This document shows, piece by piece, positions 736 through 28,891 of a stretch of 33,920 nt of DNA. The stretch covers positions 1 to 33,920 of the forward strand of contig CAIYZX010000181.1 of NCBI GenBank assembly GCA_903930745.1, in the 5' to 3' direction. The translations under genes and the position numbers were made by a program. How positions within the stretch are numbered: position 1 is the first letter of the stretch; each line of letters opens with the position of its first letter. The notes beneath the pieces were generated by a model. The model was not told the DNA's origin, did not search any database, and saw nothing but the letters and a program-made list of their open reading frames with translations. This DNA comes from an uncultured Chloroflexota bacterium. GTDB lineage: Bacteria; Chloroflexota; Limnocylindria; Limnocylindrales; CSP1-4.

Positions 736-2886
736 CTACGTCAGGGGCGCGCCATCGGGTTCGCGCGCGCCATCGGGTTCGCGAAGACCCAGCTCCACCA
801 GCCAGCCCGCCAGCAGGCGGTGCAGGGCCGGGGCGCCCACGATGGGACCGGCGGGCTCCGCAAGGTCCGCGGGGTACATGACGAACGCCTCGGTCTGCGG
901 GCCGCCGATGCCGCCGTGGCTGCCCACCAGCTCCTCGAACGCCGCCACCTCGCCCGTGTCCACGTAGTAGCTGGAGACCACCACCAGGTCGCCCACGTGC
1001 TGCATGGCGTCCAGCCTTCGCAGCGAGATCGCGGCCAGCTGGCCGTACGGTGCCAGCGGGTCGTCGCCCTCCACCTCGCCGGTGTCCAGGTGGTGGATCC
1101 CGGGCGCGGCATGACCAACGGAGCCCAGCACCAGCGGGCCGTGTGCGGCGGAGCGAAGCATCACGAGGCCCACGCCCGGGTGCGAGGCGAGCGCCTCCAC
1201 GAGGCCAGGATGAGCGGCGTCGATGGCCTCCCAGGTGAGGCGGTCATGGACCGCGGTGAAGTAGACGTTCGCAAGGTTGCCCGACGCGGCGACGACGACG
1301 TCCGTCCTGGGGTGGGGCCGGCCTGCGGCATCCAATCCCTCGCCGTGGTCCTCGGCCGCCCGCTTCTGGACGCGCTCACGCGCAAAGCTGGCGCCGCGTC
1401 CCTTGCCGCCCGCGAGCTGCGTCATGACCGTGTTGACGTGGCCCCACCCCTCCACGGAGCCGGTGGCGGCGAGGACCGCCGGTTCCCCGGCCATCAGGTC
1501 GCGCACCAGGGCGTCCAGCGATTGGCCGTACCGCTGGCGGAAGGTTGCGCCCTGGCTCTGGCCGTGGTCCGAGAGGACGACGATCCGGTACGGACGCGAG
1601 GTGAGCGCAGCGGCCCGCGCGAGGATGCCGATCTGGCGGTCCACCTCCGCGATCGCGTCCAGCGCCTCCGGGCGCTCCGGGCCGCTGTGGTGGGCGATCT
1701 CGTCGTACCCCACGAGATCCACGTAGATCACGGGCGTGCCCCGGTACATCTCCTCCAGGACCACCCCAACGGACAGGTCCCGCAGCACGACACAGGCGGC
1801 CGCCCGGAGCAGCGGGTATGGCCACGAGCGCCCGATGCGAGGCACCACGCCGCGGAGCCGCTGCTGGCGCGCCTCGATCGTCTCCCGGACCACCTCCATG
1901 CCAACGAGCACGAAGGTGCGGAAGACGGTGGACGGATCCGCGAAGAAGCCGAAGAAGTCCCGGCTCCGGACCCCGCTGGGAGCCCTGAGGGTGGACGTGG
2001 TGAGGGCGCTCCGCGTCGCGTCGCCGGAGACGAGGTTGGAGATGCTGGTCCCGCCTCCGGCCAGGAGGCCGTTCCCGGACGACACGCGCCGCTCGATCTC
2101 GGCGGCGTCCGCCGGGCGGTTGGACACCATGAGGCGTCCGCTCCCCTTCTCGTACCAGCGGAAGGCCGGAATACCGTCATTGGATCCGTGGAGGATGCCC
2201 GCCTGCGACGCCGAGGTCTGCGAGGGTGCCAGCACGTCCCAGCGTGCCAGCCGGTGGTGGCCGCCCCGCACCCAGGCCGCCATCGTGGGCGCATTGCCGG
2301 TGCGGATGGCGAACCGCAGGATGGGCTCCGCGAGGCCGTCCACCTGGACGACGAGCAGGCCAGGCGCGCTGGCGGTCGAGCCCTGGGGCTGGCGCCGGTA
2401 CGCCTCCAGGACCACCTGCCGGTACCAGGAGTCAGACCAGTCCAGGTCAAGCACCAGGCCGATGCCCATGTTGACCACGGCCAGGTAGAGCGAGAGCCCG
2501 AACGCGACGCCGAAGTCCCCGACCTCGAACCCGGGCACCACCGTGGCGACGAGGGCGATCATCAGCCCGTTGATCGCGAGCGACAGCAGTCCCAGCGTCA
2601 GGACGGCGTAGCGGACGACGAAGCGCAGGACGATGGGCCGGACGAGCGCATTGGCCGCGGAGATCCCCACCACGGCCCCCACGAGCGACAGGATTCCGTG
2701 GAACCGGACCGGCTCCAGGGCCCATGCCGCGAGCGCGAGGGCGAGCCCGTCGACAATCCACGTCACGAGCACGTAGCGGACGAGTCGCGACCTGTCCTGG
2801 CGCCAGGCGTCGGCGACACGGAGGTTGGCGCGCCAGAAGACGCGCAGGTCCGTGGTGGCGCGCGTGATGGGCCCGGGGATGCGCAT
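736..2886 (-). CDS. Membrane protein: YvlD/phage-holin-4-like N-terminal domain fused to an alkaline-phosphatase-superfamily (phosphodiesterase-like) domain
   Basis: ATG at 2886 with GGAGG upstream; the ORF-track start at 3015 overlaps hisS. About four hydrophobic helices (NALVRPIV...[12 protein letters not shown]), then [26 protein letters not shown] and LSDHGQ metal/nucleophile motifs. Confidence 0.85.
748..783. repeat. 18-bp tandem duplication (CGCGCCATCGGGTTCGCG x2) encoding [12 protein letters not shown] at the C-terminus of the 736..2886 protein
   Basis: Two exact adjacent copies at 748-765 and 766-783. Confidence 0.9.
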
Positions 2887-2905
2887 CCGCCTGCCCCCGC
2901 CTCCG

Positions 2906-4201
2906 TCAGCCGTGCCTGTGGCTGCTCTCGGCCCGGGCGAGCTCGCGGGCGAGGTCCGCAAGCGCCACGATCCGCTGGCTTGCGGCCTGGAGGTCGCGCA
3001 CCTGGACCTGGCCATCGGCCAGCTCGTCGCCCAGGATCACGGCGAAATGCGCGCCGTCCTTGCCGGCGGCCTCCAGCTGGCGGCCAAGCTTGCGACGGCC
3101 CAGGTCCGCGCGAACGCGCAGCCCCGCGGCACGCAGCTCCGTGGCGACCCTGAAGCGGCCCACGGTGTCATCTGGATCCGCGGAGACCACCACGGCGAGC
3201 GGCCCCTCGGCGGTCGCGGCGGCCCCATCGGCCCCCGCCTGCTCGGCGAGCACCAGCGCCACGCGGTCCAGGCCAAGCCCGAACCCGATGCCCGGCGTGG
3301 GCTTGCCGCCCAGCAGCGCCACGAGGCCGTCATACCGGCCGCCGCCGCCCAGCGCCTGCTGCTGGCCCTCGCGGCCGGCCACGTAGAACTCGAAGGCGGT
3401 GCGGGTGTAGTAGTCCAGGCCGCGGACAAGGCCGGGTTCCACGCGGAACGGGACACCAACGGCGGCCAGGTGCGCCTTGACGCTCTCGAAGTGCGCCGCG
3501 CAGGCCTCGCACAGGCGGTCCGTGATGCGCGGTGCGGCGGCGTTGAGCTCCGCCATCGCCGGGTCCTTGGAGTCCAGGAGCCGCAGGACGTTGCGCTCAA
3601 GGCGGTCCAGCTCCGTGGGCGGCAGCACGGCCGCGTGGCCGCGGTAGTACGCGGTCAGCTCCGCCACGTACGCCGGGCGGCACGCCGGGTCACCGATGCT
3701 GTTGACCAGCACCTCCACGTTCCGGACGCCGGCCTCCGTGTAGAAGCGGTGGCCCAGCTCGATGATCTCGGCGTCGATGCCCGGACCCGCGTCGCCGATG
3801 GCCTCCACGTCGAACTGCCAGAACTGGCGGTAGCGGCCGGCCTGGGGGCGGTCGTAGCGGAACATGGGGCCCGTGGTGGTCAGCTTCACCGGCTGCGGCC
3901 ACGTCTGCATGCCGTGCTGCACGTAAGCGCGCACGATGCCGGCCGTGGGCTCCGGGCGCAGCGCCCAGCTCTCGGACTCCTCGGTGCGCGGGGCGATGCG
4001 GAAGAGCTCCTTCTCCACGACATCGGTGACCTCGCCGATCCCGCGCTCGAAGACGCTGGACTGCTCGAAGAGCGGCGTCTCGATGCCGCGGTAGCCGTAC
4101 CGGGTGGTCAGGCTGCTCGCGGTGCGCATGAGGCGGTCGAAGACCGCGCGGTCGTCGGGAAGGAGGTCACGGGTGCCCCGGGGGGCTCGAAAGGCTGCCA
4201 T
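2906..4201 (-). CDS. hisS: Histidine--tRNA ligase
   Basis: ATG at 4201 gives MAAFRAPRGTRD...LRPEPTAG...FRYDRPQAGRYRQFWQF...LVRGLDYYTRTAFE...GGGRYDGL, with a C-terminal anticodon-binding domain. Confidence 0.98.
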   Translation of the reverse strand: MAAFRAPRGTRDLLPDDRAVFDRLMRTASSLTTRYGYRGIETPLFEQSSVFERGIGEVTDVVEKELFRIAPRTEESESWALRPEPTAGIVRAYVQHGMQTWPQPVKLTTTGPMFRYDRPQAGRYRQFWQFDVEAIGDAGPGIDAEIIELGHRFYTEAGVRNVEVLVNSIGDPACRPAYVAELTAYYRGHAAVLPPTELDRLERNVLRLLDSKDPAMAELNAAAPRITDRLCEACAAHFESVKAHLAAVGVPFRVEPGLVRGLDYYTRTAFEFYVAGREGQQQALGGGGRYDGLVALLGGKPTPGIGFGLGLDRVALVLAEQAGADGAAATAEGPLAVVVSADPDDTVGRFRVATELRAAGLRVRADLGRRKLGRQLEAAGKDGAHFAVILGDELADGQVQVRDLQAASQRIVALADLARELARAESSHRHG

Positions 4202-9092: not shown

Positions 9093-11231
9093 TCAGGCGC
9101 GGCCTGCCGCCACCTCGTCCGCTCGATTGCGTCCGGCGAGGAGGATGAGGTCCTCGTGGAGCTCGAACCACACCCCGTGATAGCTGTCCACGCGTGGCGA
9201 GGCAACGTACTTGCCATTGCCGGCGACGGCGGCAGCCACGGCTGCGCCGAGCCGAACGCCATAGCGCGCGAGCCGCGGCAACGCTGCGGCAGGGGACGCC
9301 AGCCACCGCTCGACCTCCACGTGGAGCTCGCGCAGACTCGCGAGCACCGCCGAGTCGTACACGGGGTCGGTGTGGTCGTTGAAGACTCCCTCGCTTCTCA
9401 TCTGCCAGGACGTCACAACGGTCTTCATCCGATGATCGAGCGCAAGAAAGGCGTCCAGCGCCGCGACCGCGTTCGCAGGCCCCCAGCTTGCCGTGTCCTC
9501 GGCGAGCCTCGCGATGCCCGCCGTCCTGCCCCCGGCAGTAAGGCGGAAGGAGCCGGCGCCCGCCTCGACGAGCCCGTCGGCAACCAGCTGCTCAATGAGC
9601 GAGGACGCGTCCTCGGCGGCGCAGCCGGTGGCGCTGGCAATGCCGTCGGGCCCCGCGTATCCCTTCACGACGAGGGCGCGGATCGCGTCGTGTGCATCAA
9701 CGGGCGCGCGCCCGCCAGCCACGGCGGCGGCAGGGGCACCCTGGGCCCCAGGGGCACCTGCCCCCTCCTGCTCGACGTGGATGCCGAGCTCGCGTGCCCA
9801 TCCAAGCAGCGTGGACACCTCGGGGACGACCGCCTCCACACCGGCAATGGCGCCCTTGAACACCTCTCCCGTGGCGCCGTCGATCGTGATCGTGTCGCCT
9901 CGGCGGATCACGGTGTCCCCTATCGTCACGGTGTCGGACCCGACGTCGACGGTGCTCGCGCCCACGACCGCCGGAATGCCCCACCCTCGCGCCACAACGG
10001 CCGCATGACTGGCGAACCCGCCGGTCGTGGTAAGGACCCCGGCGGCACGACTCATGCCATGCACATCGTCCGGCGACGTCTCCCGGCGAACGAGGATCAC
10101 CCGTGCTCCGCCATCGGCTGCAGTGACCGCGTCCTCCGGTGTCAGCTGGACCTCGCCGCACGCGACGCCCGGCGACGCCGGCAGGCCGCTCGCGAGAGCG
10201 GGGCCCGCATCGGATCGCCCCTTCAAGGTCGTCGGCGGGTTGGCCAGGGCGGATCGCACGCGCTCAACCGCCTGTGCGCGGGTCAACCCGAACGTGGGGT
10301 CCCCGGCCATCTCGACAGCCATCCGCAAGGCCGCCTGGGGCGTGCGCTTGCCGACGCGCACCTGCAGCATCCAGAGCCGTCTGCGCTCGATCGTGAACTC
10401 GATGTCGCAACAGTCACGGTAGTGGCGCTCAAGCGTGGTGGCGTACCTGCGCAGCTCGCCGGCCACCTCGGGCATGCGCTCGCGCAGGCAGCCGATGGGC
10501 TCGGTGACGTGCGTGCCGGCGACGACATCCTCGCCCTGCGCGTTGAACATCACGTCGCCGTAGAGCTCGTTCTCGCCCGTCGCCGGGTTGCGCGTGAAGA
10601 GGACGCCCGTGCCGGAGTCCTCGCCCCTGTTGCCGAAGACCATCGCCTGGACCGTGACACCCGTGCCAAGGTCATCAGGGATGCCCTCCTTCGCGCGGTA
10701 CGCCCTGGCTCGATCGCTGTTCCAGGAGAGGAACACGGCTTCCACCGCACCCCGGAGCTGGTCCCAGGGGTCCGCGGGAACGATCGTCACGCCGACGATC
10801 TCGCGGTAGACCCTGACAAACCGGTCGTGGCAATCTGCCGCGAATGCCGCATCTCCCGAGGTAGCGGCGAGTCCCGCCTCGGTGTCATCGTTGAGGCCGA
10901 GGTTGAGGATGGTGTCCATCATTCCCGGCATGGAACGCGGTGCCCCGGACCGCACGCTCACGAGCAGCGGGTCGGCGGCGTCGCCGAAGCGACGCCCCAC
11001 CTTCTCCTCCAGGCGCGCCATCTGCGCGCGCAGCTCATCCTCGAGACCCGCAGGCCAGCCACCGGCGAGATAGGCGTTGCAGGTGGCCGTCCCCACCGTG
11101 AAGGCGGGCGGTACCGGCAGGCCGAGCTCCACGGCCATGGTGGCGATGTTCGCCGCCTTGCCACCGATCTTGAGCGTGAGCTCGTCCAGAGACAGGCCGT
11201 GATCATGGTCATAGGCAAAGACCTGGGGCAC
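9093..11231 (-). CDS. Pyruvate,phosphate-dikinase-like protein: ATP-grasp + phospho-His domains, no pyruvate-binding barrel, C-terminal winged-helix-like module
   Basis: GGKAAN, PLLVSVRSGAPRSMPGMMDTILNLGLN, VQAMVFGN, NAQGEDVVAG, DIEFTIE and GGFASHAAVVARG. PPDK similarity stops at LLGWARELG, followed by a low-complexity linker and about 200 unrelated residues. Confidence 0.88.
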   Translation of the reverse strand: MPQVFAYDHDHGLSLDELTLKIGGKAANIATMAVELGLPVPPAFTVGTATCNAYLAGGWPAGLEDELRAQMARLEEKVGRRFGDAADPLLVSVRSGAPRSMPGMMDTILNLGLNDDTEAGLAATSGDAAFAADCHDRFVRVYREIVGVTIVPADPWDQLRGAVEAVFLSWNSDRARAYRAKEGIPDDLGTGVTVQAMVFGNRGEDSGTGVLFTRNPATGENELYGDVMFNAQGEDVVAGTHVTEPIGCLRERMPEVAGELRRYATTLERHYRDCCDIEFTIERRRLWMLQVRVGKRTPQAALRMAVEMAGDPTFGLTRAQAVERVRSALANPPTTLKGRSDAGPALASGLPASPGVACGEVQLTPEDAVTAADGGARVILVRRETSPDDVHGMSRAAGVLTTTGGFASHAAVVARGWGIPAVVGASTVDVGSDTVTIGDTVIRRGDTITIDGATGEVFKGAIAGVEAVVPEVSTLLGWARELGIHVEQEGAGAPGAQGAPAAAVAGGRAPVDAHDAIRALVVKGYAGPDGIASATGCAAEDASSLIEQLVADGLVEAGAGSFRLTAGGRTAGIARLAEDTASWGPANAVAALDAFLALDHRMKTVVTSWQMRSEGVFNDHTDPVYDSAVLASLRELHVEVERWLASPAAALPRLARYGVRLGAAVAAAVAGNGKYVASPRVDSYHGVWFELHEDLILLAGRNRADEVAAGRA

Positions 11232-11283
11232 GCGTGGGTCCTCCCAAGGGCATCGTGCGGCCGTCTCGCGGACGGCCTTGGGG

Positions 11284-12171
11284 TCAAAGGACGGCGACCG
11301 GGTCCACCATCGAGCCCGTGGCGCCGCGGATCTTCACCGGCAGCGCGACGAACAGGAACTCGTAGATCCTCCGGCGGGCAAGCTCCTCGAGATCCAGGCT
11401 CTCCATGATGTAGATGCCGTTCTCGATGAGCAGCCTGGTGTGCACTGGCTGCGGATTGCCCTCCGGTCCCGGGTCGGGTGCCGGCTGGACCTCGAAGGTC
11501 TCCGTGTCCGACCCGGCGGCGACCACGCCTCGCTCAAGCATCCACTGGGCCGCGGACAGGTCGGGGCCGGGCGTCTTGTGCGCGGCCATCCTCTCGGCAT
11601 CGGGCCAGAGGCCCATGTACCCGGTGCGGATGACCACGACATCCCAGGGCCGGACGGCAACGCCTTGAGCTGCACAGATCGCCTCCATCTCGGCGGCATC
11701 GATCGGTGACCCCTTGGGCAGGCACTCGACGCCGCGGAAGGTGGGGGCATCGACGAGGACGCCGCGGGTGAAGAACGGCGGCATGCTGGAGGCATCCCCG
11801 TGCACCGGACCAAAGTCGGTCAGGTGCTCGTCCGCAGCGCCGCCACCGTACCAGTGCATGTCGTCGCCGATCGTCATGTGGGCGAGGGCATCCATGTGCG
11901 CTCCAGAGTGGCTCGTCGCCATGACGTACTCGGCCATGTAGCCGAGGCCCGCGTCATTCACCGGGCCCCACGGCTGGGCACCGGTCACCCGGATCCCGCG
12001 TGGCGTCCGGTAGTTGAGCACCTGGAAGGGCGGGTGGCCCGGGAACAGCGGCATGCCCGGGAACCTGACCGCACTGAGCGAGATCATCTCGCCGGCCTGG
12101 ACCAGGCGCGCCGCCTGGGCGACCTGCGAGGCAGGCATGTCCCCGATGGGGCCGAGCTGGGAACCACTCAC
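11284..12171 (-). CDS. Cyclase family (kynurenine formamidase/isatin hydrolase-like) metal-dependent amidohydrolase
   Basis: GTG at 12171 overlaps the upstream TGA (GTGA). HSGAHMDALAH is a variant of HxGTHxDxPxH. Also IRTG, GSDT, PVHTRLL, MESLDL and GATGSMVDPVA. Confidence 0.9.
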   Translation of the reverse strand: MSGSQLGPIGDMPASQVAQAARLVQAGEMISLSAVRFPGMPLFPGHPPFQVLNYRTPRGIRVTGAQPWGPVNDAGLGYMAEYVMATSHSGAHMDALAHMTIGDDMHWYGGGAADEHLTDFGPVHGDASSMPPFFTRGVLVDAPTFRGVECLPKGSPIDAAEMEAICAAQGVAVRPWDVVVIRTGYMGLWPDAERMAAHKTPGPDLSAAQWMLERGVVAAGSDTETFEVQPAPDPGPEGNPQPVHTRLLIENGIYIMESLDLEELARRRIYEFLFVALPVKIRGATGSMVDPVAVL

Positions 12172-14423
12172 CGCGCACCATCCTCCTGCAGCGCTCGCCA
12201 GACACGTTCGGGCGTCAGGGGCAGATCCCGGATCGGGACGCCGATCGCGTCGCGAACCGCGGCGCCGACAGCGGAGGCGACGCACAGCAATGCACCCTCG
12301 CTCATCCCCTTGGACCCGTACGGGCCGGGCCCGTCCTCGTTCTCGATGATCTCGCTCCGCAGCTCGACCGGCAGATCCATGATCGTCGGGATCCGATAGT
12401 CGATCGCGCCAAGGTTCCGCATCCGTCCACGTTCGTCGTAGATGCAGTGCTCCATCAGCGTGTGACCGAGGCCCATGATCGCCGCACCCTCGTCCTGCAT
12501 CCGGACGTGGAGCGGGTTGAGGGCCTTGCCCACATCGGAGACGGTGATGTGCTTCACCAGCGTCACGTCACCGGTCTCGCGATCCACGTCCGCCTCGATG
12601 ACGGTGCAGTTGAACTCGAAGAAGGCCGGTGCGCCGGAGAGTGGATGCGACGGATCGGCATCCTTGCGCACCTCGCCGAGTCCCGTGATCTCTCCGCCGA
12701 GCCTGCCGAGCCCGGACGCAAGCACCTCCCGAATGGTGAGCACGCGACCGTCGGCGACCCGGACGACGCCGGCGTCAACGATCACGTCCCCCACCTCGAC
12801 ACCCGCGATCCGCGCCGCCAGTGCACCCAGCTTCGCCTGCACGTCCCGGCAGGCCATGAGAACCGCGTTGCCCATCAGGACCGTGGACCGGCTCGCGGAG
12901 GTCTGCTGGTCGTACGGCACGATCGCCGTGTCACCCATGATGACCGTCACCCAGTCCATCGGCGCGCCGAGCTCCTGCGCCACGATCTGCGAGAACACGG
13001 TGCGGGCTCCCTGGCCCATGTCCGAGGTGCCCGCGTAGACGACAGCGCTGCCGTCTCCGAGGAGGCGCACGATCGCGTAGGACAGTCCCGTCGTCGGCCC
13101 CGACTTGATGCCGAGTGCGATGCCACGACCTCGGCCTGGAGGCAGCGGCGCGTCCCAGCCGCCTTCCGAGGCCGCACGGCGCACGGTCTGCTCCCAGTCA
13201 CCGTCGGCAGGGGTGTCGAACGGGATGAAGGCATCGCCCTTCCGCGCCAGGTTGAGCAGGCGGATGGCGAGCCGGTCCATGCCGAGCTCGAGCGCGCCCT
13301 GGTCGAGGTTGGACTCCACTGCCCAGTTGATCTGCGGGTTGCCGAAGCCGCGAAAGGCGGTGGACGGCACCGTGTGGCTCAGCACGCTCCGTGCCAGGAT
13401 CCTCACCGCGGGGATGTTGTACGGCCCGGCCGCCGGGTAGCTGCCCTTGGCAACGACGCGGTCGGCGATGTCCACGTAGGCACCGATCAGGTAGTCGGCC
13501 TCGATGTCCTGGAAGAGGATGTGGCCAGCAGCGTCGAAGCCGGTGCGAACATGCGACGCACAGGCCGCTCGGCGGACCGCCTGGAACGACTCCTCGAGCG
13601 TCAGGACGAGCCTGACAGGTCTACCCAGCCTGAGCGCGGCGAACACCACCGCGGGTTCGTGCTTGGCGTGCTGCTTGCCTCCGAACCCGCCGCCGGGATC
13701 CGGGGCGTGGACACGGACCTTGGAGAGCGGTAGGCCGACGAGGCCGGCAATCTGCTTCTGGAGCCAGTTGGGGTGTTGGATCGTGCTCCAGACCACGACG
13801 CCGTCGCCGTCGGGCGCAGCGATGAACGCGTGGGGCTCGATGGCGAACTGCGTGACGATGGGGAAGCTGTACCGGCCCTCGACGACGAGGTGCGCCTTCG
13901 CCTCCTCGGCCTCGACGTCACCCCAGCCAACGCGGTGCTCGGTGAGCACGTTGCCGAGCGCGAGGCCGGTGTCTCCACGAAGCGCCGGGTCCTGCACGAG
14001 GGGCGCACCCGGCGCGAGTGCCCCGGCGATCGTGAAGACCGCAGGCAGCTCCTCGTAGTCCACCTTGACGAGGGCCGCGGCCCGCTCGGCGAGCTCTCTC
14101 GTGTCGGCCACGACGATCGCCACCGGGTCGCCGTGGTACTTGGTCTCGCGCACCGCGAGCACCGGTCGATCGGCAACCTGTGGGCCATATCGCGGCATCG
14201 GGTCCGGCAGGTCGGCCGCCGTCATGACGAGATGCACGCCAGGGAGTGCGAGCGCCGCCGAGCCGTCGATCCCGACGATGCGGGCCCGCGCACAGTCGAG
14301 GTGGACAAGCTTCGCATGCAGGGCACCCGGCACGTGGAGGTCCGCCAGGTACGCCTGGGCTCCGGTGACCCGGTCAGTCCCGCCGACCCTGTTGGGGGAC
14401 TCCCCGATAGGCGACGCGCTCAT
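12168..14423 (-). CDS. Xanthine dehydrogenase family molybdopterin-binding (large) subunit
   Basis: ATG at 14423 (ATGA overlap). Motifs QFAIEPH, GGGFGGK, AFRGFG, DMGQG, SASRS and GSKGMSEG (catalytic Glu). Confidence 0.95.
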   Translation of the reverse strand: MSASPIGESPNRVGGTDRVTGAQAYLADLHVPGALHAKLVHLDCARARIVGIDGSAALALPGVHLVMTAADLPDPMPRYGPQVADRPVLAVRETKYHGDPVAIVVADTRELAERAAALVKVDYEELPAVFTIAGALAPGAPLVQDPALRGDTGLALGNVLTEHRVGWGDVEAEEAKAHLVVEGRYSFPIVTQFAIEPHAFIAAPDGDGVVVWSTIQHPNWLQKQIAGLVGLPLSKVRVHAPDPGGGFGGKQHAKHEPAVVFAALRLGRPVRLVLTLEESFQAVRRAACASHVRTGFDAAGHILFQDIEADYLIGAYVDIADRVVAKGSYPAAGPYNIPAVRILARSVLSHTVPSTAFRGFGNPQINWAVESNLDQGALELGMDRLAIRLLNLARKGDAFIPFDTPADGDWEQTVRRAASEGGWDAPLPPGRGRGIALGIKSGPTTGLSYAIVRLLGDGSAVVYAGTSDMGQGARTVFSQIVAQELGAPMDWVTVIMGDTAIVPYDQQTSASRSTVLMGNAVLMACRDVQAKLGALAARIAGVEVGDVIVDAGVVRVADGRVLTIREVLASGLGRLGGEITGLGEVRKDADPSHPLSGAPAFFEFNCTVIEADVDRETGDVTLVKHITVSDVGKALNPLHVRMQDEGAAIMGLGHTLMEHCIYDERGRMRNLGAIDYRIPTIMDLPVELRSEIIENEDGPGPYGSKGMSEGALLCVASAVGAAVRDAIGVPIRDLPLTPERVWRALQEDGAR

Positions 14424-14896
14424 CGTCCGGCCTCCGAGGCGGCCAGGACTGCGTCCGTGATCTGCTCGTAGCAGGCGCAGCGGCACAGGTTTCCGGCCAT
14501 GCCCTCCGCGATCTCCTCCCGGGTTGGATGGGGGTTCAGGTCCAGCAACGCGTGGGCTGACATGAGCTGCCCGGGGATGCAGAAGCCGCACTGCACCGCG
14601 CCCTTGTCCAGGAACGAGGTCTGCAGCGTCGACAGGCGGCCATCGGCGGACGAGAGCCCCTCGACGGTGAGAATCACCGCCCCATCCGCCTCCACCGCGA
14701 GCACCAGGCACGAGTCCACGGCACGTCCGTCCACGATGACCGTGCAGGCGCCGCATTCGCCGACGAGGCAGCACTCCTTGGTTCCCGTCAGTCCGAGATC
14801 GTCGCGCAGGACATCGAGCAGGGTGTGCTGGGGTGCCACGTCCAGCACGCGTCGCCGGCCATTGACCGTCAGCTCGATGGGAAGGGTGAGCGTCAC
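14420..14896 (-). CDS. Xanthine dehydrogenase/CoxS family [2Fe-2S] subunit
   Basis: GTG at 14896. Motifs GTKECCLVGECGACTV...SC, QCGFC and NLCRC. Confidence 0.95.
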   Translation of the reverse strand: MTLTLPIELTVNGRRRVLDVAPQHTLLDVLRDDLGLTGTKECCLVGECGACTVIVDGRAVDSCLVLAVEADGAVILTVEGLSSADGRLSTLQTSFLDKGAVQCGFCIPGQLMSAHALLDLNPHPTREEIAEGMAGNLCRCACYEQITDAVLAASEAGR

Positions 14897-14897
14897 G

Positions 14898-15764
14898 TCA
14901 CTGCTCCCCCGCCGCCAGGCGCTCGAGCGCGATGGCAAGGGCACGTCTGCCCAGGACACGCAGCATCGCGAGACGGTACTCGGGTCCGGCCCGCATTGAG
15001 GTCGCGGATGGGGAGGCATCGGCGAGGATCGTCGCAAGGACGTCGGCCCTGGCGGCATCCGGCGCGCCGGGGTCGGCCAGCACACCAGAGGTGTCCACCC
15101 GGACCAGCGGTCGCGGCCCCACGCTCCCAAAGGCGACCCTGGTCACGCCCGCTGCGTCCACTCCGCAGGCCAGCGTGACGGAGGCGAGATCATGACCCCG
15201 TCGGCGCGTTCGACGCTGGTGGGCACTGGCGATCCGGCTTGCGGGCATTGGGACCTCCACTGCAACCACCAGTTCGCCGGGGGCGAGCGTCGTGATCCCG
15301 GATCTGACGAACAGGTCGTCCACGGCGATCCGGCGCACTCCCGTCGGACCCGCTGCCACGACCCGGGCATCGTGCACGAGGAGCGGGGGTGCCGTGTCGG
15401 CGGCGGGCGAGGCATTGCAGATGTTCCCGCCCAGCGTCGCGCGATTGCGGATCTGGATGGAGCCGACAGCTGCGGCCGCCTCACCGAGCGCGTGGGCATG
15501 CCTGCGCACGATCGGACTGGCGGCGATCTCGGTCATTGTCGTTGTCGCACCGATCACGATCGTCCCGGCCTCGTTGCGGATCCCGGGCGCAAGCTCAGGG
15601 ACGCGCTTGATGTCCACCACGAGGGCAGGCGAGGCAGAGCCGTCGCGGAGCCGGATGATGAGATCGGTTCCACCGGCGAGCACGCGAGCACCAGGGCCGC
15701 GCTCGGCGAGGAGCGCGAGCGCGTCCGCGAGCGTGTTGGGACAGGCGTAGGCGAATGGTTGCAT
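14898..15764 (-). CDS. Xanthine dehydrogenase/CoxM family FAD-binding subunit
   Basis: Motifs LAGGTDL and QIRNRATLGGNICNASPAAD. Confidence 0.95.
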   Translation of the reverse strand: MQPFAYACPNTLADALALLAERGPGARVLAGGTDLIIRLRDGSASPALVVDIKRVPELAPGIRNEAGTIVIGATTTMTEIAASPIVRRHAHALGEAAAAVGSIQIRNRATLGGNICNASPAADTAPPLLVHDARVVAAGPTGVRRIAVDDLFVRSGITTLAPGELVVAVEVPMPASRIASAHQRRTRRRGHDLASVTLACGVDAAGVTRVAFGSVGPRPLVRVDTSGVLADPGAPDAARADVLATILADASPSATSMRAGPEYRLAMLRVLGRRALAIALERLAAGEQ

Positions 15765-15786: not shown

Positions 15787-16674
15787 CTAGAGGATCCTGT
15801 CGACCTCGTCCATCAGCACCTGCGGGCTGGAGGCACGGATGAAGTAGAAGGGACGCTGACAGAAGTCGTCAACGAACTGGGCGCGGCGGGCACGGAGCAC
15901 GTCGTTGTCCACCATCGGCATGACGTGCCCGGGAGCCAGCAGCTCGTTGGTGAGAAGGTAGTTCTGCAGGGAGTGCAGGAACTGGAAGCCCCGCTCGAAC
16001 GGGATGAGCTCGTTGGTCGCCGGGTCGAAGTTCCCATCGATCGCCGGGACGATCACGAGGTCGATGTTCGGAGTGCCCTCATACCTGCCCCACGTGGGCA
16101 TTGTGCCCCAGAACTTCTCGACGCCCTTGTTGGGGGCGGCCTTGTCCGAGCGCTCCGTGCCCTCGGTTCGCCTGACCAGGAACGTGTCCTCGGAGCCCGC
16201 CACGGCTCGCCCGTCATCGCTGATGACCGTCGTCTCCGATGCGACCTGGAGCGCGCCGCGCACGCCGGCCTCGATCAGGCCCATGCTCTTGCCGTGATTG
16301 GACTCGCCCCCCAGGAACAGGAACGTCTTGCCCCGGTAGTTCACGGCGGCGCTGTGGCTCGGGTGCTCCCCCTTGGCCTCCATGCGCAGCGCCAGCATCG
16401 CCACGATCGCCTTCTGCAGCGGTCCGGCCGGCCAGCTGCCGGTGAACGTCATCGTCCGCCCGTCGTAGGACGCGCGCTTCGCTCCGTCCTGGTTCCATAC
16501 GATGTCCGGCGCCTCGAGCGTCACCGCCGGGGAGATCCGCACGTCGGCGAGCCTGTAGTTCAGGAAGTTGAGATCGTCGAGCACGTGCTCGCGAGGCTCG
16601 CCGCCGTAGACGTCGATGCGGAGGCGGGCCTTGCCTGCCGAGAACTCCTCTGTAAGGCGCAGGTTGCTGTTCAT
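15787..16674 (-). CDS. Uncharacterised P-loop protein resembling the HPr kinase/PEPCK-like kinase fold
   Basis: HSAAVNYRGKTFLFLGGESNHGKS resembles the HPrK-type H-x-x-x-V...G-x4-GKS pattern. The gene is translationally coupled to gntR (ATGA overlap). Confidence 0.7.
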   Translation of the reverse strand: MNSNLRLTEEFSAGKARLRIDVYGGEPREHVLDDLNFLNYRLADVRISPAVTLEAPDIVWNQDGAKRASYDGRTMTFTGSWPAGPLQKAIVAMLALRMEAKGEHPSHSAAVNYRGKTFLFLGGESNHGKSMGLIEAGVRGALQVASETTVISDDGRAVAGSEDTFLVRRTEGTERSDKAAPNKGVEKFWGTMPTWGRYEGTPNIDLVIVPAIDGNFDPATNELIPFERGFQFLHSLQNYLLTNELLAPGHVMPMVDNDVLRARRAQFVDDFCQRPFYFIRASSPQVLMDEVDRIL

Positions 16675-17426
16675 GGGATCCCTTCCGGTGTGTGAGCGGG
16701 TTCCGGCCCCGTGCCGGTTCGTGCGGCGGGTGAGGGCTGATGCTGATCGGCTTCGCCATCACCCGGTCCGGGCTCCAGCCAGAGCGTGGCCAGCATCGTC
16801 CGCGCGTCGCTGAAGTGGGTCCGGATGGCCGTCTCGGCGGCTGTCCCGTCGCGGCGTCGGAGGGCATCGAGCACAGGGCCGTGTAGCCCGGCGATCCGAC
16901 GCCGGTCCGAGCCGGCCACCGCGAGCGTGATGTACGTCCGGGAGTACGGCTCGAGGAGGCCCCAGACCCGCTTCAGCGTCTTGTTCCCGCTGACGTCCAC
17001 GAGATACCCGTGGAAGGCGGCGTCGGCAGAGGCCTCCCCCACCGTGTCTCCGGCCTCTGCGCCTGCGTGCATCGCGTCCAGGAGAACGCCGAGCCGCTCG
17101 ACGTCATCGTCGGTCAGCCTGGGCACCGCGAGACGTACAACGAGCGCCTCCAGTTCGGACCGGACGACATACGCCTCGAGAAGCTCATCACGAGAGGGAC
17201 GGCGGACCCGGGCGCCGCGAAACGCGGCGATCTCCACGACTCCGAGGGCCTCGAGATCTCGGAGGGCCTCGCGGACAGGCGCCTGGCTCGTCCCGAACTC
17301 GCGCGCCACCCGGGTCTCAATGATCCGGGACCCGGGCTGATAGCGGCCGTCAAGGATCGCCTCGAGCAGGCGATCCTTGACGGTGTCGGACAGGACGCTG
17401 CGTGAGATCGTCGTCTCGGCAGCCAT
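16671..17426 (-). CDS. GntR family transcriptional regulator (FCD/FadR subfamily), copy 1
   Basis: N-terminal wHTH (ETRVAREFGTSQAPVREAL...RGARV) and FCD motif DAAFH...SGN. Confidence 0.95.
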   Translation of the reverse strand: MAAETTISRSVLSDTVKDRLLEAILDGRYQPGSRIIETRVAREFGTSQAPVREALRDLEALGVVEIAAFRGARVRRPSRDELLEAYVVRSELEALVVRLAVPRLTDDDVERLGVLLDAMHAGAEAGDTVGEASADAAFHGYLVDVSGNKTLKRVWGLLEPYSRTYITLAVAGSDRRRIAGLHGPVLDALRRRDGTAAETAIRTHFSDARTMLATLWLEPGPGDGEADQHQPSPAARTGTGPEPAHTPEGIP

Positions 17427-17453: not shown

Positions 17454-19187
17454 CTAAAGGATCGTCACGATGCCGGCGGTGCCGTCCACGCGGAGACGGT
17501 CGCCGGTCCTGATGGTCGAAGTGGCAACCGAGGTGCCCACGACGGCAGGGATCTCGTACTCGCGCGCCAGCACGGCCGGGTGCGAGACAGTACCGCCGGC
17601 GTCGGTCACGACGGCGGAGATGTGGCCGTAGAGGACCTGCCAGGCCGGGTTGGTCATCTGGCAGACGAGGATCTCGCCCTCGAGCAGGCTGTCGAACTCC
17701 GCCTCCGACATGACGACACGCGCCACGCCCTCAACGACGCCCGGCGAGCCGGCGATGCCCCTGACCTGGCCGGCCACCTGCACCTGCGAGCGGGTGAACT
17801 TGTCGGGGAAGCCCCAGAGGTTGAGGTACGGGAAGGCGAGCTGTGTCGCGGTGACCGTGCCGACCCAGTCACGCGGCTGCACCTTTTCGGCAGCCGCACG
17901 CTTGGCCTTGGCGGCGGCGACGATCGCCCTCCCGTCCATGGAGGACGGGTTGCCGATGAAGGCGCGCAGGTCGTTGTAGCGGAACAGGATGACGTCGTCG
18001 GGCGCGTCGAGGACGCCCTGTGCCACGAGCTTCTCGCCGACGGCGATGAGCACGAGGCGCACGTGGGCATTGGCACCCTGGTCGATGTAGAAGTGGTGGT
18101 CCGGGGTGAGCGGCGCCATCTTGAGGTTGATCTCGTTGGCGGCGCGCATCTCCTCGAGCGCCTCGCCCTCGAGGCCCTCGAGGATCTCCCTCGCGGCTGC
18201 GTCGATATCGGCCGCCAGGGTCGCGATGCGTGCCGGGTAGTCGTAGTCGGACGAGAACTGGTCCCGCACGAGCTGGACGACCGGGATCATGTCCTCCCGG
18301 AAGCTCGGGAAGATGAACTCATGGCTCCAGACGGCGTGCCAGCCGAACTCCTTCTGGTACGGCACGATCCGCTCGTCGATGAAGCGTCGACCGCGTGCGC
18401 TTGCCCTGAGGGAGGGCAGGATCTCGGCCCCGGACGCGGCGGCGAAGATCGCGGCCAGCTCGGCGTCGGCCTTGACCTCCTCCTTCGCCTCCCAGAGGGC
18501 CTTGATCTTGTCCCAGTTGCGGTCGTTGGCCGAGTTCTGGAGCCGGCCGAGCAGGGCCTCATTGACCCTGCCATGCGTCTTCTCCATGACCGCCCGAAGG
18601 TTGAGCGTCGCGCTCAGCTGCGCGAAGTTCAGCATCCAGTGGATCTTCCAGTGGCGGTCGTGCATGTCGATGGCGTCCTCGAGCAGGACGGCCACCTCGG
18701 CCAGGGAGAGCTGGTCCTTCTGGTCCAGCATGCCCTCGATGTAGTCGAAGTTGCGCTGCATCTCCGGGACGAAGCGGCTTCGCCACCAGTCGGTGAACTT
18801 GAGGCCGTACACCGGCAGGACTGCGCCCAGGTACGCGCCGATCCTGCCGGCGTATGCGTTGTCCTCGGGGACGATCGGGTGGGTCGAGTAGTTGTACTCC
18901 TGGGTCGCGACATCGACGCCGGCCTCGGCCGGGATCGCCGCCGTGTACAGGTAGCCGTTGACGTTCTTGTAGATCCAGTCCGACGCGAACGGCGTGCCGA
19001 AGCGGCGGAACATGTGGTCGCACGAGAGCCACCAGCCGCCGATGTCCTCGTACATCGGTGACAGGGGCTTGGGGCAGTGCAGGTCGTCGTAGACCCAGAA
19101 GAGATCCTTCTCGGTCTCGGACGTCCACTCCACGGGGAACGACTCGTCCCCGAGGAACTGGTCCAGGACTTCTTCCTTCAGCGGCAC
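17454..19187 (-). CDS. PEP-utilising-enzyme family protein: acceptor-binding domain + C-terminal swivelling phospho-His domain, no ATP-grasp (phenylphosphate synthase alpha/RPH-like)
   Basis: GTG start after GAGGAGG. C-terminal GIAGSPGVVEG...ILVCQMTNPAW...VVTDAGGTVSHPAVLAREYEIPAVVG...VDGTAG. Confidence 0.88.
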   Translation of the reverse strand: MPLKEEVLDQFLGDESFPVEWTSETEKDLFWVYDDLHCPKPLSPMYEDIGGWWLSCDHMFRRFGTPFASDWIYKNVNGYLYTAAIPAEAGVDVATQEYNYSTHPIVPEDNAYAGRIGAYLGAVLPVYGLKFTDWWRSRFVPEMQRNFDYIEGMLDQKDQLSLAEVAVLLEDAIDMHDRHWKIHWMLNFAQLSATLNLRAVMEKTHGRVNEALLGRLQNSANDRNWDKIKALWEAKEEVKADAELAAIFAAASGAEILPSLRASARGRRFIDERIVPYQKEFGWHAVWSHEFIFPSFREDMIPVVQLVRDQFSSDYDYPARIATLAADIDAAAREILEGLEGEALEEMRAANEINLKMAPLTPDHHFYIDQGANAHVRLVLIAVGEKLVAQGVLDAPDDVILFRYNDLRAFIGNPSSMDGRAIVAAAKAKRAAAEKVQPRDWVGTVTATQLAFPYLNLWGFPDKFTRSQVQVAGQVRGIAGSPGVVEGVARVVMSEAEFDSLLEGEILVCQMTNPAWQVLYGHISAVVTDAGGTVSHPAVLAREYEIPAVVGTSVATSTIRTGDRLRVDGTAGIVTIL

Positions 19188-19244
19188 AGTTCAGTTCCTC
19201 CTCGGACCGGCCGCGTTGCCGGTCCCTGCGTGCGTGACGGTGGC

Positions 19245-20072
19245 CTACGAGGCCTTCGAGATCCTCTTGAACCTCTTCATGTTCTCGGTGATGGCGATCT
19301 CGGTGGGGAGTCGCTCCATCGAGGAGGCACCGAAGAACCCGGCGACGCCGGTGGTGTGGGTGAGCACGTACTCGGCATCCTCGGGCTCGGCGATCGGACC
19401 GCCATGGCAGAGCACGATGATGTCCGGCTTCACGGCAACGGCAGCGTCGCGGATCGCCTGGACACGCTCGGCCGAGGCCTCGATCGTGAGAGCCGTGGTG
19501 GCGCCGATGGCACCCTTGGTGGTGAGGCCCATGTGCGCGACGATCACGTCGGCGCCAGCGGCGGCCATTGCCGCCGCCTGGTCGGTGTCGAAGACGTACG
19601 GCGTGGTGAGCAGACCGGCGTCGTGCGCCTGGCCGATCATCTCGACCTCGAGGCCGAACCCCATGCCGGTCTCCTCGAGGTTCTGCCGGAACTGTCCGTC
19701 GCACAGGCCAACCGTCGGGAAGTTCTGGACGCCGGAGAACCCGACCCGCTTGATCTCCTCGAGGAACACCGGCATCAGCCGGAAGGGGTCCGTGCCACAG
19801 ACACCGGCGAGGACCGGTGTCTCGCGGACGACCGGCAGCACCTCGGCGGCCATCTCCATGACGATCGCGTTGGCATCGCCGTAGGGCATGCAGCCCGCCA
19901 GCGAGCCGCGTCCGGCCATCCGGTAGCGCCCCGAGTTGTAGATGATGATGAGGTCGGCGCCGCCTGCCTCGGCGCACTTCGCGGAGAGACCTGTGCCCGC
20001 GCCGGCGCCCATGATCACGCCGCCCTGGGCCACCGTTGTGCGCAGCCGTGCAAGCGCCTGCTGCCCGTTCAT
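19245..20072 (-). CDS. Phosphoenolpyruvate-hydrolase-like TIM-barrel protein (Tm-1 C-terminal domain family)
   Basis: [64 protein letters not shown] and [12 protein letters not shown]. Confidence 0.93.
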
Positions 20073-20091
20073 GCCAAGGACCTCCTTGTCC

Positions 20092-28522: not shown

Positions 28523-28891
28523 ATGATCAAGCGCGTCGCCCGAGAGGACGCGGTCAAGGTTCCGCTCCCCGGTCGCGTCTGGAACTCCTACATCGCTCCC
28601 GGCGACGGCACGTCGGATCTCGTCTCGCTTGGCGTGTCGGTCTACCCCCCGGGGTCCCGCCCAAAAGGCCACGTGCATCCCGCCGAGGAGGAGACCATCT
28701 ACTGCGCCCGGGGTCGTGGCCGCATCGTGACCTCCCAGGGGACGGCGGACATCGAGCCCGGGGTCGTGGTGCACGTGCCGCCCGGCGTCTTCCATGCGAC
28801 CGAATCGGACGGCCCGGAGGAGATGGAGCTGCTGTGCCTCTTCACGCCCCCGGTCGTGTCGGGCTCGTATGAGAGGAAGGAACCCACGTGA
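28523..28891 (+). CDS. Cupin domain protein
   Basis: GAGG RBS. Motifs PKGHVHPAEEETIYC and VHVPPGVFHA. Coupled to the next gene (GTGA). Confidence 0.9.
   Translation: MIKRVAREDAVKVPLPGRVWNSYIAPGDGTSDLVSLGVSVYPPGSRPKGHVHPAEEETIYCARGRGRIVTSQGTADIEPGVVVHVPPGVFHATESDGPEEMELLCLFTPPVVSGSYERKEPT

What the first reader, a model, noticed from the sequence alone, without database searches (positions are those of the whole stretch)
9093..11231. PPDK truncated at the domain boundary, with the pyruvate barrel replaced by a winged-helix-like module
Seen: intact ATP-grasp and phospho-His motifs. Similarity ends at LLGWARELG (about 9790), where the PEP/pyruvate barrel of PPDK normally begins. A linker follows, then a domain with wHTH-like features (LIEQLVADGLVEAGAGSFRLTAGGR) ending DSYHGVWFELHEDLI. 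The regulatory Thr of PPDK (GGMTSH) is Ala here (GGFASH). From memory, unverified: M. tuberculosis Rv1127c is a similarly short ppdK and its neighbour Rv1126c resembles this tail, which would make this a Rosetta-stone fusion. Inference: it cannot make PEP alone and acts as a phosphoryl donor or signalling protein.
Basis: partly seen in the sequence, partly recalled or inferred. Interest (0 to 1): 0.75.

Follow-up and report, generated by a model that had tools for sequence, protein, structure and literature searches.

The report
VadK-type kinase fused to its partner
This gene encodes a relative of pyruvate phosphate dikinase that lost its pyruvate-binding barrel, like the tuberculosis kinase VadK, and is fused to the small unstudied protein encoded next to VadK, which marks that protein as the kinase's working partner.

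Summary
ORF 9093..11231(-) encodes 712 aa. It has an ATP-grasp domain and a phosphohistidine swivel domain (His409, GGFASH) but no PEP/pyruvate barrel. It passes NCBIfam's short-PPDK model NF004531 and fails the full PPDK model.

The last 214 aa are a winged helix plus a four-helix bundle (pLDDT 95-97) with an invariant polar cluster. They match no Pfam or NCBIfam family.

The Rosetta-stone idea is confirmed. In genome G645, the gene carrying the published rv1127c primer is overlapped by 4 nt by a 201-aa ORF. That ORF matches the tail end to end (35% identity, E 7e-32).

The fusion is common: 72 of 80 related loci have one open frame. It is therefore a fused variant of the VadK/Rv1126c pair (EMBO Rep 2026). 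This scan found the same fusion before on other DNA.

The winged helix is acidic, so DNA binding is unlikely. The tail module also occurs fused to a second kind of swivel-histidine protein and to phosphatases. One such swivel protein lies 7.8 kb away in the same-strand cluster and co-occurs in 22 of 22 genomes.

The best reading is the ATP-charged unit of a multi-part phosphotransfer system. The tail's exact role is inferred, not shown.

The parts
9093..11231 (-). Whole gene: VadK-type barrel-less PPDK fused to an Rv1126c-type module, 712 aa (stop codon 9093-9095)
   Evidence: in-frame fusion also in 72 of 80 related loci
11239..11245 (-). Shine-Dalgarno-like GGGAGGA, 7 nt before the GTG start
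   Evidence: read directly
10227..11189 (-). ATP-grasp (PPDK_N-type) nucleotide-binding domain, residues about 15-335. K25, R94, E278, Q290 and R292 are invariant in 46 fused homologues
   Evidence: R94 aligns with the Arg that the paper calls ATP-binding Arg106
9837..10199 (-). Swivel phosphohistidine domain (PEP-utilizers), residues about 345-465. The catalytic His409 codon is at 10005-10007. Motif GGFASH has Ala407 in place of the regulatory Thr
9783..9836 (-). Post-swivel linker that ends the similarity to PPDK (...LLGWARELG, residues 466-483)
9705..9782 (-). Ala/Gly/Pro-rich spacer, residues about 484-509. The tail model has low confidence in its first residues
   Evidence: pLDDT <50 for tail residues 1-6, block mean 52
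9483..9704 (-). Winged helix-turn-helix, residues about 510-583 (tail 12-85). Net acidic, recognition helix charge -3
9096..9482 (-). Four-helix bundle, residues 584-712 (tail 86-214). It carries the invariant cluster W609 Q610 N618 D619 H620 D622 Y625 D626 R653 Y657 R660 D682 S683 H685 W688 E690 H692 R703
17454..19187 (-). Probable partner: 577-aa PRK08296-like protein (PigC/RedH-like central part plus a second swivel-His domain, no ATP-grasp) in the same minus-strand cluster
   Evidence: Co-occurs with the tail family in 22 of 22 genomes. Fused forms exist
11284..15764 (-). Upstream genes of the same operon-like array: FAD subunit, 2Fe-2S subunit and Mo-binding subunit of a xanthine-dehydrogenase-family enzyme, then a PF04199 'cyclase'
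   Evidence: The Mo subunit lies upstream on the same strand in 49 of 80 loci

Best explanation
The gene encodes a VadK-type kinase. It is a descendant of pyruvate phosphate dikinase that keeps the ATP-grasp domain and the swivelling phosphohistidine domain (His409) and has lost the PEP/pyruvate barrel. It is fused through a flexible Ala/Gly/Pro spacer to the module that M. tuberculosis encodes as the separate downstream gene Rv1126c. It cannot make PEP. By homology with VadK it uses ATP and Mg2+ to phosphorylate its own His409 (inferred from the paper, not assayed). The fused tail is an acidic winged helix plus a four-helix bundle with an invariant Asp/His/Arg/Tyr/Trp cluster, and it sits where the barrel used to be. 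I read it as a non-catalytic partner module that binds next to the swivel domain and directs or gates where the phosphate goes (inferred). In this organism the likely next station is the PRK08296-like protein at 17454..19187. That protein has a PigC-like substrate domain and a second swivel histidine but no ATP-grasp of its own. The set would then work as a multi-part, ATP-driven small-molecule kinase within a catabolic cluster (ABC transporter, Mo-hydroxylase, cyclase, dehydrogenases). Shown: the domain make-up, the homology to both VadK and Rv1126c, the prevalence of the fusion, the gene linkage and the co-occurrence. Inferred: autophosphorylation, docking, the acceptor and the pathway.
For: Identity: NF004531 (short PPDK) scores 513 bits against a cut-off of 456, while TIGR01828 (full PPDK) scores 532 bits against a cut-off of 843. 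There is no PEP-utilizers_C. The N part is 44% identical to the 492-aa product of the gene holding the published rv1127c primer, with His409 and R94 aligned to the paper's His422 and Arg106. The tail is 35% identical over 196 aa to the 201-aa ORF that overlaps that gene by 4 nt. The paper reports that co-expression with Rv1126c improved VadK solubility and that a 2 M NaCl wash was used to separate them (Methods passages).

Prevalence of the fusion: 72 of 80 loci have one open frame, 6 are frameshifted and 2 are cut by a contig end.

The tail is a family of its own: 1419 cluster representatives at E<=1e-3, no Pfam or NCBIfam model, and the same key residues in every genomic context.

Link to swivel proteins and phosphate chemistry. 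Among 269 hits the architectures are grasp-swivel-T 20, X-swivel-T 6, X-swivel-grasp-swivel-T 3, HAD-T, Y_phosphatase3-T and AMP-binding-T. A His_Phos_1 gene abuts T in 5 of 32 actinobacterial loci.

PRK08296-like partner. In a sample of 121 genomes of the class, T is in 22 and the PRK08296-like orthologue is in 24. All 22 T-positive genomes have it, against 2 of 99 T-negative genomes. The two genes lie on one contig within 10 kb in 17 of 22. In the window both lie in one minus-strand array.
Against: No biochemistry was done here.

Co-occurrence among kin may only reflect gain and loss of a whole island.

The tail family also occurs without any swivel protein within 1.5 kb. In 8 of 32 actinobacterial loci it sits beside dapA and a metallo-beta-lactamase-fold gene. 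It is also fused to an AMP-binding enzyme. Its role therefore cannot be only to serve swivel domains.

The VadK paper names methylcitrate synthase and dehydratase, not Rv1126c, as interactors above its stringent cut-off. There are no prpC/prpD genes in this window.

The invariant polar cluster fits a ligand, metal or acceptor site as well as it fits a docking surface.
Confidence: 0.7

Rival explanations
1. The tail is itself the phosphoryl acceptor. His409~P would pass its phosphate to a conserved His or Asp of the four-helix bundle (H685, H692, H620), as HPt or HPr-type carriers do, and phosphatases would reset it.
For: The bundle has an invariant His187 (H685) and nearly invariant H122 and H194. 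The tail always follows a swivel domain in kinase fusions. It is fused or adjacent to three phosphatase families: HAD and Y_phosphatase3 and His_Phos_1. CheA P1 (Z 9.3, rmsd 2.6 A, 99 aligned) and HptB (Z 8.1) are among the fold matches.
Against: A profile-profile comparison of the tail family with 12 Hpt domains from relatives gave probability 0.14% and no alignment. The HxxKG-type signature of those Hpt domains is absent. The fold matches are generic four-helix bundles, with FAT domains ranked higher, all in the range the tool calls common. The tail is also fused to an AMP-binding enzyme.
Confidence: 0.2
2. The tail is a new substrate-binding domain that replaces the barrel, making the protein a complete dikinase for an unknown small molecule of the Mo-hydroxylase pathway.
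For: It occupies the barrel's position after the second linker. It has an invariant polar pocket-like cluster with Arg, His, Asp and Tyr. The Mo-hydroxylase large-subunit gene lies upstream on the same strand in 49 of 80 loci, and directly abuts in 27. Relatives such as rifampicin phosphotransferase and PigC use non-barrel substrate domains (family names seen; their mechanisms are recalled).
Against: The same module with the same key residues occurs in very different contexts: the prp region in the mycobacterial genome, dapA operons, and beside phosphatases. That argues against a pathway-specific substrate. A 129-aa four-helix bundle on a 26-aa flexible spacer is an unusual catalytic acceptor site. 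The PRK08296-like protein in the cluster already offers a substrate domain.
Confidence: 0.15
3. The tail is a DNA-binding transcription factor domain (MarR/DtxR-like) whose activity is switched by the attached kinase, controlling the neighbouring operon.
For: The winged-helix fold matches MarR-family regulators (Z about 11, rmsd 1.3-2.2 A, 71-77 aligned). The family profile hits the wHTH of an iron-dependent repressor (E 1.2e-4). One ESM Atlas cluster is automatically named 'MarR family transcriptional regulator'.
Against: The predicted recognition helix is acidic: charge -3 here, mean -2.2 in 46 fused forms and -1.6 in 67 mostly stand-alone forms, with under one Lys/Arg on average. It is acidic or neutral in all context groups. 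Conservation lies in the bundle, not in the wHTH. The paper's section heading and its Discussion (which I read) state that VadK does not regulate the methylcitrate genes transcriptionally. The cluster has its own GntR/FCD regulator.
Confidence: 0.08
4. The fusion is an assembly or gene-calling artefact, or the protein is an ordinary PPDK whose barrel is supplied in trans (for example by the PEP_hydrolase-like TIM barrel at 19245..20072).
For: The genome is a fragmented MAG (781 contigs, 6.2% contamination). A PF09370 barrel lies 8 kb away.
Against: The same single open frame occurs in 72 of 80 independent loci from many assemblies. The genome holds a complete PPDK with PEP-utilizers_C elsewhere. 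PF09370 lies within the 6-kb flanks in only 5 of 80 loci. The regulatory Thr is lost.
Confidence: 0.03

Closest known systems
VadK (Rv1127c, formerly PpdK) of Mycobacterium tuberculosis with its operonic partner Rv1126c (Pascoe et al., EMBO Rep 2026, PMC13400623; NCBIfam NF004531/PRK05878)
   Same: ATP-grasp plus swivel-His without the barrel. The catalytic His and the ATP-binding Arg are aligned. Ala replaces the regulatory Thr (GGFASH here, GGAASH there). The N part is 44% identical and the partner 35% identical.
   Different: Here the two proteins are one polypeptide. The organism is a Chloroflexota (Limnocylindria-like) MAG, judging by the titles of the nearest loci. The neighbours are a Mo-hydroxylase/cyclase/ADH cluster and a second swivel protein, not prpDC. 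Autophosphorylation and any role in the methylcitrate cycle are untested.
Canonical pyruvate phosphate dikinase (TIGR01828; PDB 1ggo, 1kbl, 1dik)
   Same: The first 480 residues align with chain residues 17-528 (E 2.6e-122).
   Different: No PEP/pyruvate TIM barrel. About 48 residues fewer in the ATP-grasp insert, judged from the offset of the two aligned blocks. No regulatory Thr. Score below the family cut-off. The genome has a real PPDK elsewhere.
Split or modular PEP-synthase-type small-molecule kinases: PigC/RedH, rifampicin phosphotransferase, phenylphosphate synthase (the last recalled, not seen in any call)
   Same: A swivel His shuttles phosphate from an ATP-grasp domain to a non-barrel substrate domain. 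The cluster's PRK08296-like protein matches the central and swivel parts of PigC/RedH.
   Different: Here the ATP-grasp unit carries its own swivel domain and an extra wHTH/bundle module. No member of those families is known to me to have such a module.
MarR/DtxR/MntR winged-helix regulators and generic four-helix bundles (FAT domains, HPt/CheA P1)
   Same: Fold of the two halves of the tail.
   Different: Acidic recognition helix. No profile similarity to Hpt. The bundle matches lie in the range expected for any up-down four-helix bundle.

Membership tests
VadK / short PPDK (NF004531) | Score above NCBIfam's curated cut-off for the short-PPDK equivalog | tested here: met
   513.4 bits against a cut-off of 456, residues 22-514 on profile positions 26-518 of 534
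VadK / short PPDK (NF004531) | ATP-grasp and central His domain present, PEP/pyruvate domain absent | tested here: met
   PPDK_N and PEP-utilizers found, no PEP-utilizers_C at E<=1. The PDB alignment ends at chain residue 528
VadK / short PPDK (NF004531) | Catalytic His (His422) and ATP-binding Arg (Arg106) conserved | tested here: met
   H409 and R94 align with H424 and R108 of the 492-aa ORF of G645. These equal 422 and 106 if the annotated start is two residues later. Both are invariant in 46 fused homologues
VadK / short PPDK (NF004531) | Rv1126c-type partner encoded with it | tested here: met
   Fused here. The tail against the 201-aa downstream ORF of G645 gives E 7e-32
VadK / short PPDK (NF004531) | ATP/Mg2+-dependent autophosphorylation | not testable with these tools
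   Shown for the M. tuberculosis protein only (PMC13400623, passages)
VadK / short PPDK (NF004531) | Control of, or binding to, methylcitrate-cycle enzymes | not tested
   No prpC/prpD-type family among the 46 ORFs scanned in the window. The genomic context differs
Canonical PPDK (TIGR01828) | Whole-protein score above cut-off and a PEP-utilizers_C barrel | tested here: not met
   532 bits against a cut-off of 843. No barrel
Canonical PPDK (TIGR01828) | Regulatory Thr two residues before the catalytic His | tested here: not met
   GGFASH. Ala in 43 of 46 fused homologues. The genome's own PPDK has GGATSH
HPt phosphotransfer domain (PF01627) | Profile similarity and the conserved His-x-x-Lys-Gly helix | tested here: not met
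   hhalign probability 0.14%, 1 aligned column. No Pfam hit on the tail
HPt phosphotransfer domain (PF01627) | Four-helix-bundle fold like HPt/CheA P1 | tested here: inconclusive
   CheA P1 Z 9.3 (rank 17) and HptB Z 8.1 (rank 47), below unrelated FAT domains (Z 12.8)
MarR/DtxR-type DNA-binding regulators | Winged helix-turn-helix fold | tested here: met
   Z about 11 with MarR proteins. Profile E 1.2e-4 to an iron-dependent repressor wHTH
MarR/DtxR-type DNA-binding regulators | Basic recognition helix and wing suited to DNA | tested here: not met
   Recognition helix charge -3. Family means are -2.2 and -1.6. This is a crude proxy, not a binding test

The most novel reading that the evidence does not exclude
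The Rv1126c-type module is the missing adaptor of an undescribed three-part phosphohistidine machine. A VadK-type unit is charged by ATP. The module docks it to a second swivel-histidine protein that lacks an ATP-grasp domain (PRK08296-like). That protein then phosphorylates a small molecule. If this holds, VadK in mycobacteria would also act through Rv1126c and a second swivel protein rather than only by binding methylcitrate enzymes. G645 does hold a second PF00391 domain 1.04 Mb away.
Probability: 0.3. Interest if true: 0.8.

Novelty: new variant of a known kind. Interest (0 to 1): 0.6.

Why it matters
VadK was described in 2026 as a virulence-linked kinase of M. tuberculosis. Its route of action is still a working model, and its operonic partner Rv1126c is mentioned in that paper only as a solubility aid.

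A natural fusion of the two is the common form in Chloroflexota, Acidimicrobiia and other soil and freshwater lineages. That is strong genomic evidence that the partner belongs to the kinase's mechanism.

The partner module has about 1400 cluster representatives and no Pfam or NCBIfam model. It has an invariant polar site. It travels with swivel-histidine enzymes and phosphatases.

This gives testable candidates for the unknown acceptor: the module itself, or a second swivel protein. It also offers a harmless environmental protein in which to study the system.

Tried and rejected

2. Foldseek against the PDB gave no match at E<=0.001 for the whole tail or for the bundle alone (best E 1.1).

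3. VIA-align gave only generic four-helix bundles for the bundle. No family-specific fold emerged.

4. Pfam at E<=10 on the tail gave only two sub-threshold wHTH hits, E 0.14 and 0.27.

5. The ESM Atlas gave 30 unnamed clusters, with no lead beyond an automatic 'MarR' name.

6. HPt membership: hhalign probability 0.14%.

7. The idea that the PRK08296-like gene is unlinked. It appeared within the 6-kb flanks in only 6 of 80 loci. Genome-level search then showed it usually lies 6-9 kb away, just outside those flanks, so I dropped the idea.

8. Long open frames of 1000-1500 aa in six loci looked like triple fusions. They are only stop-free high-GC sequence running over the upstream Mo-subunit gene. 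Real triple fusions are P0197, P0263 and P0266.

9. Some 'stand-alone' near-identical hits on long contigs are frameshifted fusions in long-read MAGs. For example, a 231-aa hit lies on the contig of L037.

10. PDRP (PF03618) was not found in the window's genome, which is 89.9% complete.

I worked with the loci already delivered.

12. Literature: two searches found only the VadK paper and its preprint as relevant. In that paper 'fused' occurs 0 times, and the occurrences of 'fusion' shown to me name the 'Orbitrap Fusion' instrument. [quoted passage not shown] The raw pull-down data (PRIDE) were not seen.
Full report
**What is there**

The minus-strand ORF 9093..11231 encodes 712 aa from a GTG start. 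A GGGAGGA site lies 7 nt upstream, and the start is 52 nt after the stop of the preceding 'cyclase' gene.

Pfam finds PPDK_N (E 1.9e-45) and the mobile PEP-utilizers domain (residues 377-455, E 1e-22). It finds no PEP-utilizers_C barrel, even at E<=1.

NCBIfam's model for the short 'pyruvate, phosphate dikinase' (NF004531/PRK05878, 534 positions) is passed: 513 bits against a cut-off of 456, covering residues 22-514. The full-length PPDK model TIGR01828 is failed: 532 bits against 843.

Against solved structures, residues 21-480 align with residues 17-528 of the 873-residue Clostridium PPDK (E 2.6e-122), and the match stops there.

The catalytic histidine is His409 in GGFASH. The same genome carries a complete PPDK with the barrel on another contig, and its motif is GGATSH. 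The Thr position is Ala in 43 of 46 fused homologues and never Thr.

**The tail**

The last 214 residues (window 9096-9737) have no Pfam or NCBIfam family.

They are far from unique. A full scan of 1.84 billion cluster representatives gives 1419 proteins at E<=1e-3 and 885 at E<=1e-10. These are stand-alone proteins of about 200 aa and C-terminal domains of longer ones.

An alignment with 66 mostly stand-alone members shows invariant W111, Q112, H187, W190, E192 and R205. It also shows the motifs NDHxDxxYD, PRLxxYxxRL and DSYHxVWFELHEDL (tail numbering, add 498 for the protein).

AlphaFold2 models are very confident: pLDDT 94.9 for the tail and 97.2 for the bundle alone. They show a winged helix-turn-helix (about 12-85) followed by an up-down four-helix bundle.

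- The winged helix matches MarR-type proteins (Z about 11). At profile level it matches the wHTH of iron-dependent repressors (E 1.2e-4).
- The bundle matches only generic four-helix bundles. p130Cas FAT scores Z 12.8, CheA P1 scores Z 9.3 at rank 17, and HptB scores Z 8.1 at rank 47. Foldseek finds nothing below E 1.
- A profile comparison with 12 Hpt domains from related genomes gives probability 0.14%.
- The predicted recognition helix is acidic. Its charge is -3 here, with means of -2.2 in 46 fused forms and -1.6 in 67 mostly stand-alone forms. It is acidic or neutral in every genomic context.

I therefore think DNA binding is unlikely. The conserved function sits in the bundle.

**The Rv1127c/Rv1126c link**

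A 2026 paper (PMC13400623) renames Rv1127c as VadK. I read its abstract, Introduction passages, Results sections 11, 16 and 17, the Discussion and Methods passages.

The paper describes a truncated PPDK that autophosphorylates on His422 with ATP and Mg2+. It regulates the methylcitrate cycle and is needed for virulence. Rv1126c appears only as the 'operonic partner': co-expression improved solubility, and it was removed with a 2 M NaCl wash.

To test the homology without typing any protein from memory, I proceeded in steps.
1. I searched for the paper's 16S primer in 401 Actinomycetota genomes. Ten had it.
2. I searched for its rv1127c primer in 301 genomes of the genus of one of those ten. 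One genome, G645, has an exact match.
3. In G645 a 492-aa ORF holding the primer is overlapped by 4 nt by a 201-aa ORF.

The 492-aa protein is 44% identical to the N part of the window protein (E 1e-102), with the catalytic His and the ATP-binding Arg aligned. The 201-aa protein is 35% identical to the tail over 196 residues, end to end (E 7e-32). It scores E 5.2e-68 against the family profile. The Rosetta-stone reading is correct.

**How common the fusion is**

In the species-representative genome collection, 591 of 600 pattern matches encode a relative of the tail. The best 80 loci were kept. By their titles they are mostly Limnocylindria and other Chloroflexota, with Acidimicrobiia, Dormibacterota and a few others.

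In 72 of the 80 the kinase part and the tail share one open frame. Six are frameshifted, all in long-read MAGs, and two are cut by a contig end.

In a sample of 401 Actinomycetota genomes, 42 have the module. Of the 32 loci inspected:
- 4 are fused;
- 3 have the kinase gene followed by the module;
- 5 have the reverse order;
- 1 is divergent;
- 19 have no VadK-like gene within 1.5 kb.

Of those 19, eight sit beside dapA and a metallo-beta-lactamase-fold gene. Five are followed directly by a His_Phos_1 phosphatase gene, and two of these five also have a convergent swivel-domain gene in view. One of the five, L105, comes from an unpublished genome (G085).

**What the module travels with**

I sorted the 269 hits with profiles of my own and checked them with Pfam.

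| Architecture | Count |
|---|---|
| Module alone | 165 |
| swivel-module (mostly fragments from short contigs) | 62 |
| ATP-grasp-swivel-module | 20 |
| unknown-domain-swivel-module (Pfam-checked: four PRK08296-like at 755-773 aa, P0167 at 783 aa, and P0133, whose N-terminal part is transketolase-like) | 6 |
| PRK08296-like-VadK-like-module | 3 |
| AMP-binding enzyme, HAD phosphatase, Y_phosphatase3 fusions | 1 each |
| Other minor classes (unassigned N-terminal part, duplicated module, or grasp without a detected swivel) | 10 |

The module therefore accompanies enzymes of phosphoryl or adenylyl chemistry. Most often it follows a swivel histidine directly.

**Context in the window**

Everything from 26282 down to 9093 is on the minus strand, in this order:
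- a five-gene branched-chain-type ABC transporter;
- UPF0261;
- a PEP_hydrolase-like barrel;
- a 577-aa PRK08296-like protein (PigC/RedH-like central part plus a second swivel domain, no ATP-grasp);
- a GntR/FCD regulator;
- an unassigned 295-aa ORF;
- the FAD, 2Fe-2S and Mo subunits of a xanthine-dehydrogenase-family enzyme, all below every NCBIfam cut-off;
- a PF04199 cyclase;
- the fusion gene.

The Mo subunit gene lies upstream on the same strand in 49 of 80 loci. It directly abuts the fusion gene in 27 (gap up to 137 nt), and cyclase and/or Zn-ADH lie between in 22.

In 121 genomes sampled from the class, the module is in 22 and the PRK08296-like orthologue (E<=1e-60) is in 24. All 22 module-positive genomes have the orthologue, against 2 of 99 module-negative ones. 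The two genes lie on one contig within 10 kb in 17 of the 22.

Related genomes are not independent, and a whole island may be gained or lost together. Still, combined with the natural fusions, this supports a working link between the three proteins.

The window's genome holds one copy of the module.

**Mechanism**

Shown here: domain loss, conserved catalytic residues, homology to VadK and to Rv1126c, the fusion, and the linkage.

Taken from the paper: autophosphorylation of VadK and tight association with Rv1126c.

Inferred: the tail docks beside the swivel domain and directs or gates the phosphate. I put this at about 40% among the roles for the tail. The alternatives are that it accepts the phosphate itself (about 20%), binds a small-molecule acceptor (about 15-20%) or binds DNA (under 10%).

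The likely next station here is the PRK08296-like protein, which lacks its own ATP-grasp domain.

Against a purely swivel-bound role are the dapA-linked and AMP-binding-linked members. Against any simple transfer of the mycobacterial model is the absence of prpC/prpD here.

**Novelty**

The kind is known (VadK, published June 2026). The fused architecture, the nature of the partner module and its wider associations are not in that paper or in anything my two literature searches found.

This scan has noted the same fusion on other DNA several times (e1-3234635, e1-3335020, e1-3821254; related: e1-2454539, e1-4786947). I re-tested the central claims myself.

I rate it a new variant of a known kind, of moderate to good interest.

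Noticed in passing
window 17454-21321 (-): Three-gene set: UPF0261 (PF06792/PF23189), a PEP_hydrolase-like TIM barrel (PF09370, E 1e-131) and a PRK08296-like protein with a swivel-His domain but no ATP-grasp. A GntR/FCD regulator follows at 16671-17426. Its function is unknown, and it is part of the same-strand cluster as the fusion gene.
   Followed up: partly
window 15787-16674 (-): A 295-aa ORF without any Pfam or NCBIfam hit lies directly upstream of the FAD subunit of the Mo-hydroxylase. It is conserved at that place in 21 of 80 related loci.
   Followed up: no
L094, L095, L097, L099, L101, L103, L104, L115: In 8 of 32 actinobacterial loci a stand-alone member of the tail family sits in line with dapA (DHDPS). 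In most of them a metallo-beta-lactamase-fold gene (RNase J-like by position, recalled) is also present. No kinase is in view, so the module has a kinase-independent context.
   Followed up: partly
L100, L102, L105, L108, L111: The tail-family gene is directly followed by a His_Phos_1 phosphatase gene, with gaps of 0-2 nt or a short overlap in four loci. An ECF sigma factor gene is nearby in four loci. In two loci (L108, L111) a convergent swivel-domain gene is in view. L105 is from an unpublished genome (G085).
   Followed up: partly
G645:C1:2292031-2292243 (-): The mycobacterial genome that holds the rv1127c primer has a second PEP-utilizers swivel domain in a 1048-aa open frame 1.04 Mb from the VadK gene (only 3 of 29 candidates were scored). 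It is a possible second phosphohistidine protein there. I recall it as Rv2047c, unverified.
   Followed up: no
window 736-3015 (-): An ORF combining a Phage_holin_4_2 membrane domain (E 7e-17) with a type I phosphodiesterase/nucleotide pyrophosphatase domain (E 4e-11).
   Followed up: no
window 28888-30695 (+): A split transketolase-like pair: the N-terminal TPP-binding part at 28888-29754, and the pyrimidine-binding and C-terminal parts at 29751-30695, overlapping by 4 nt.
   Followed up: no
L014, L023, L037, L041, L042, L059: In six loci, all long-read MAG assemblies by their titles, the fusion gene is broken by frameshifts. Some database 'stand-alone' tail proteins of high identity are such artefacts.
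   Followed up: partly
P0125 (593 aa), P0232 (609 aa): Two database proteins appear to join the ATP-grasp part directly to the tail module, with no detectable swivel domain. They may be real deletions or gene-call errors.
   Followed up: no
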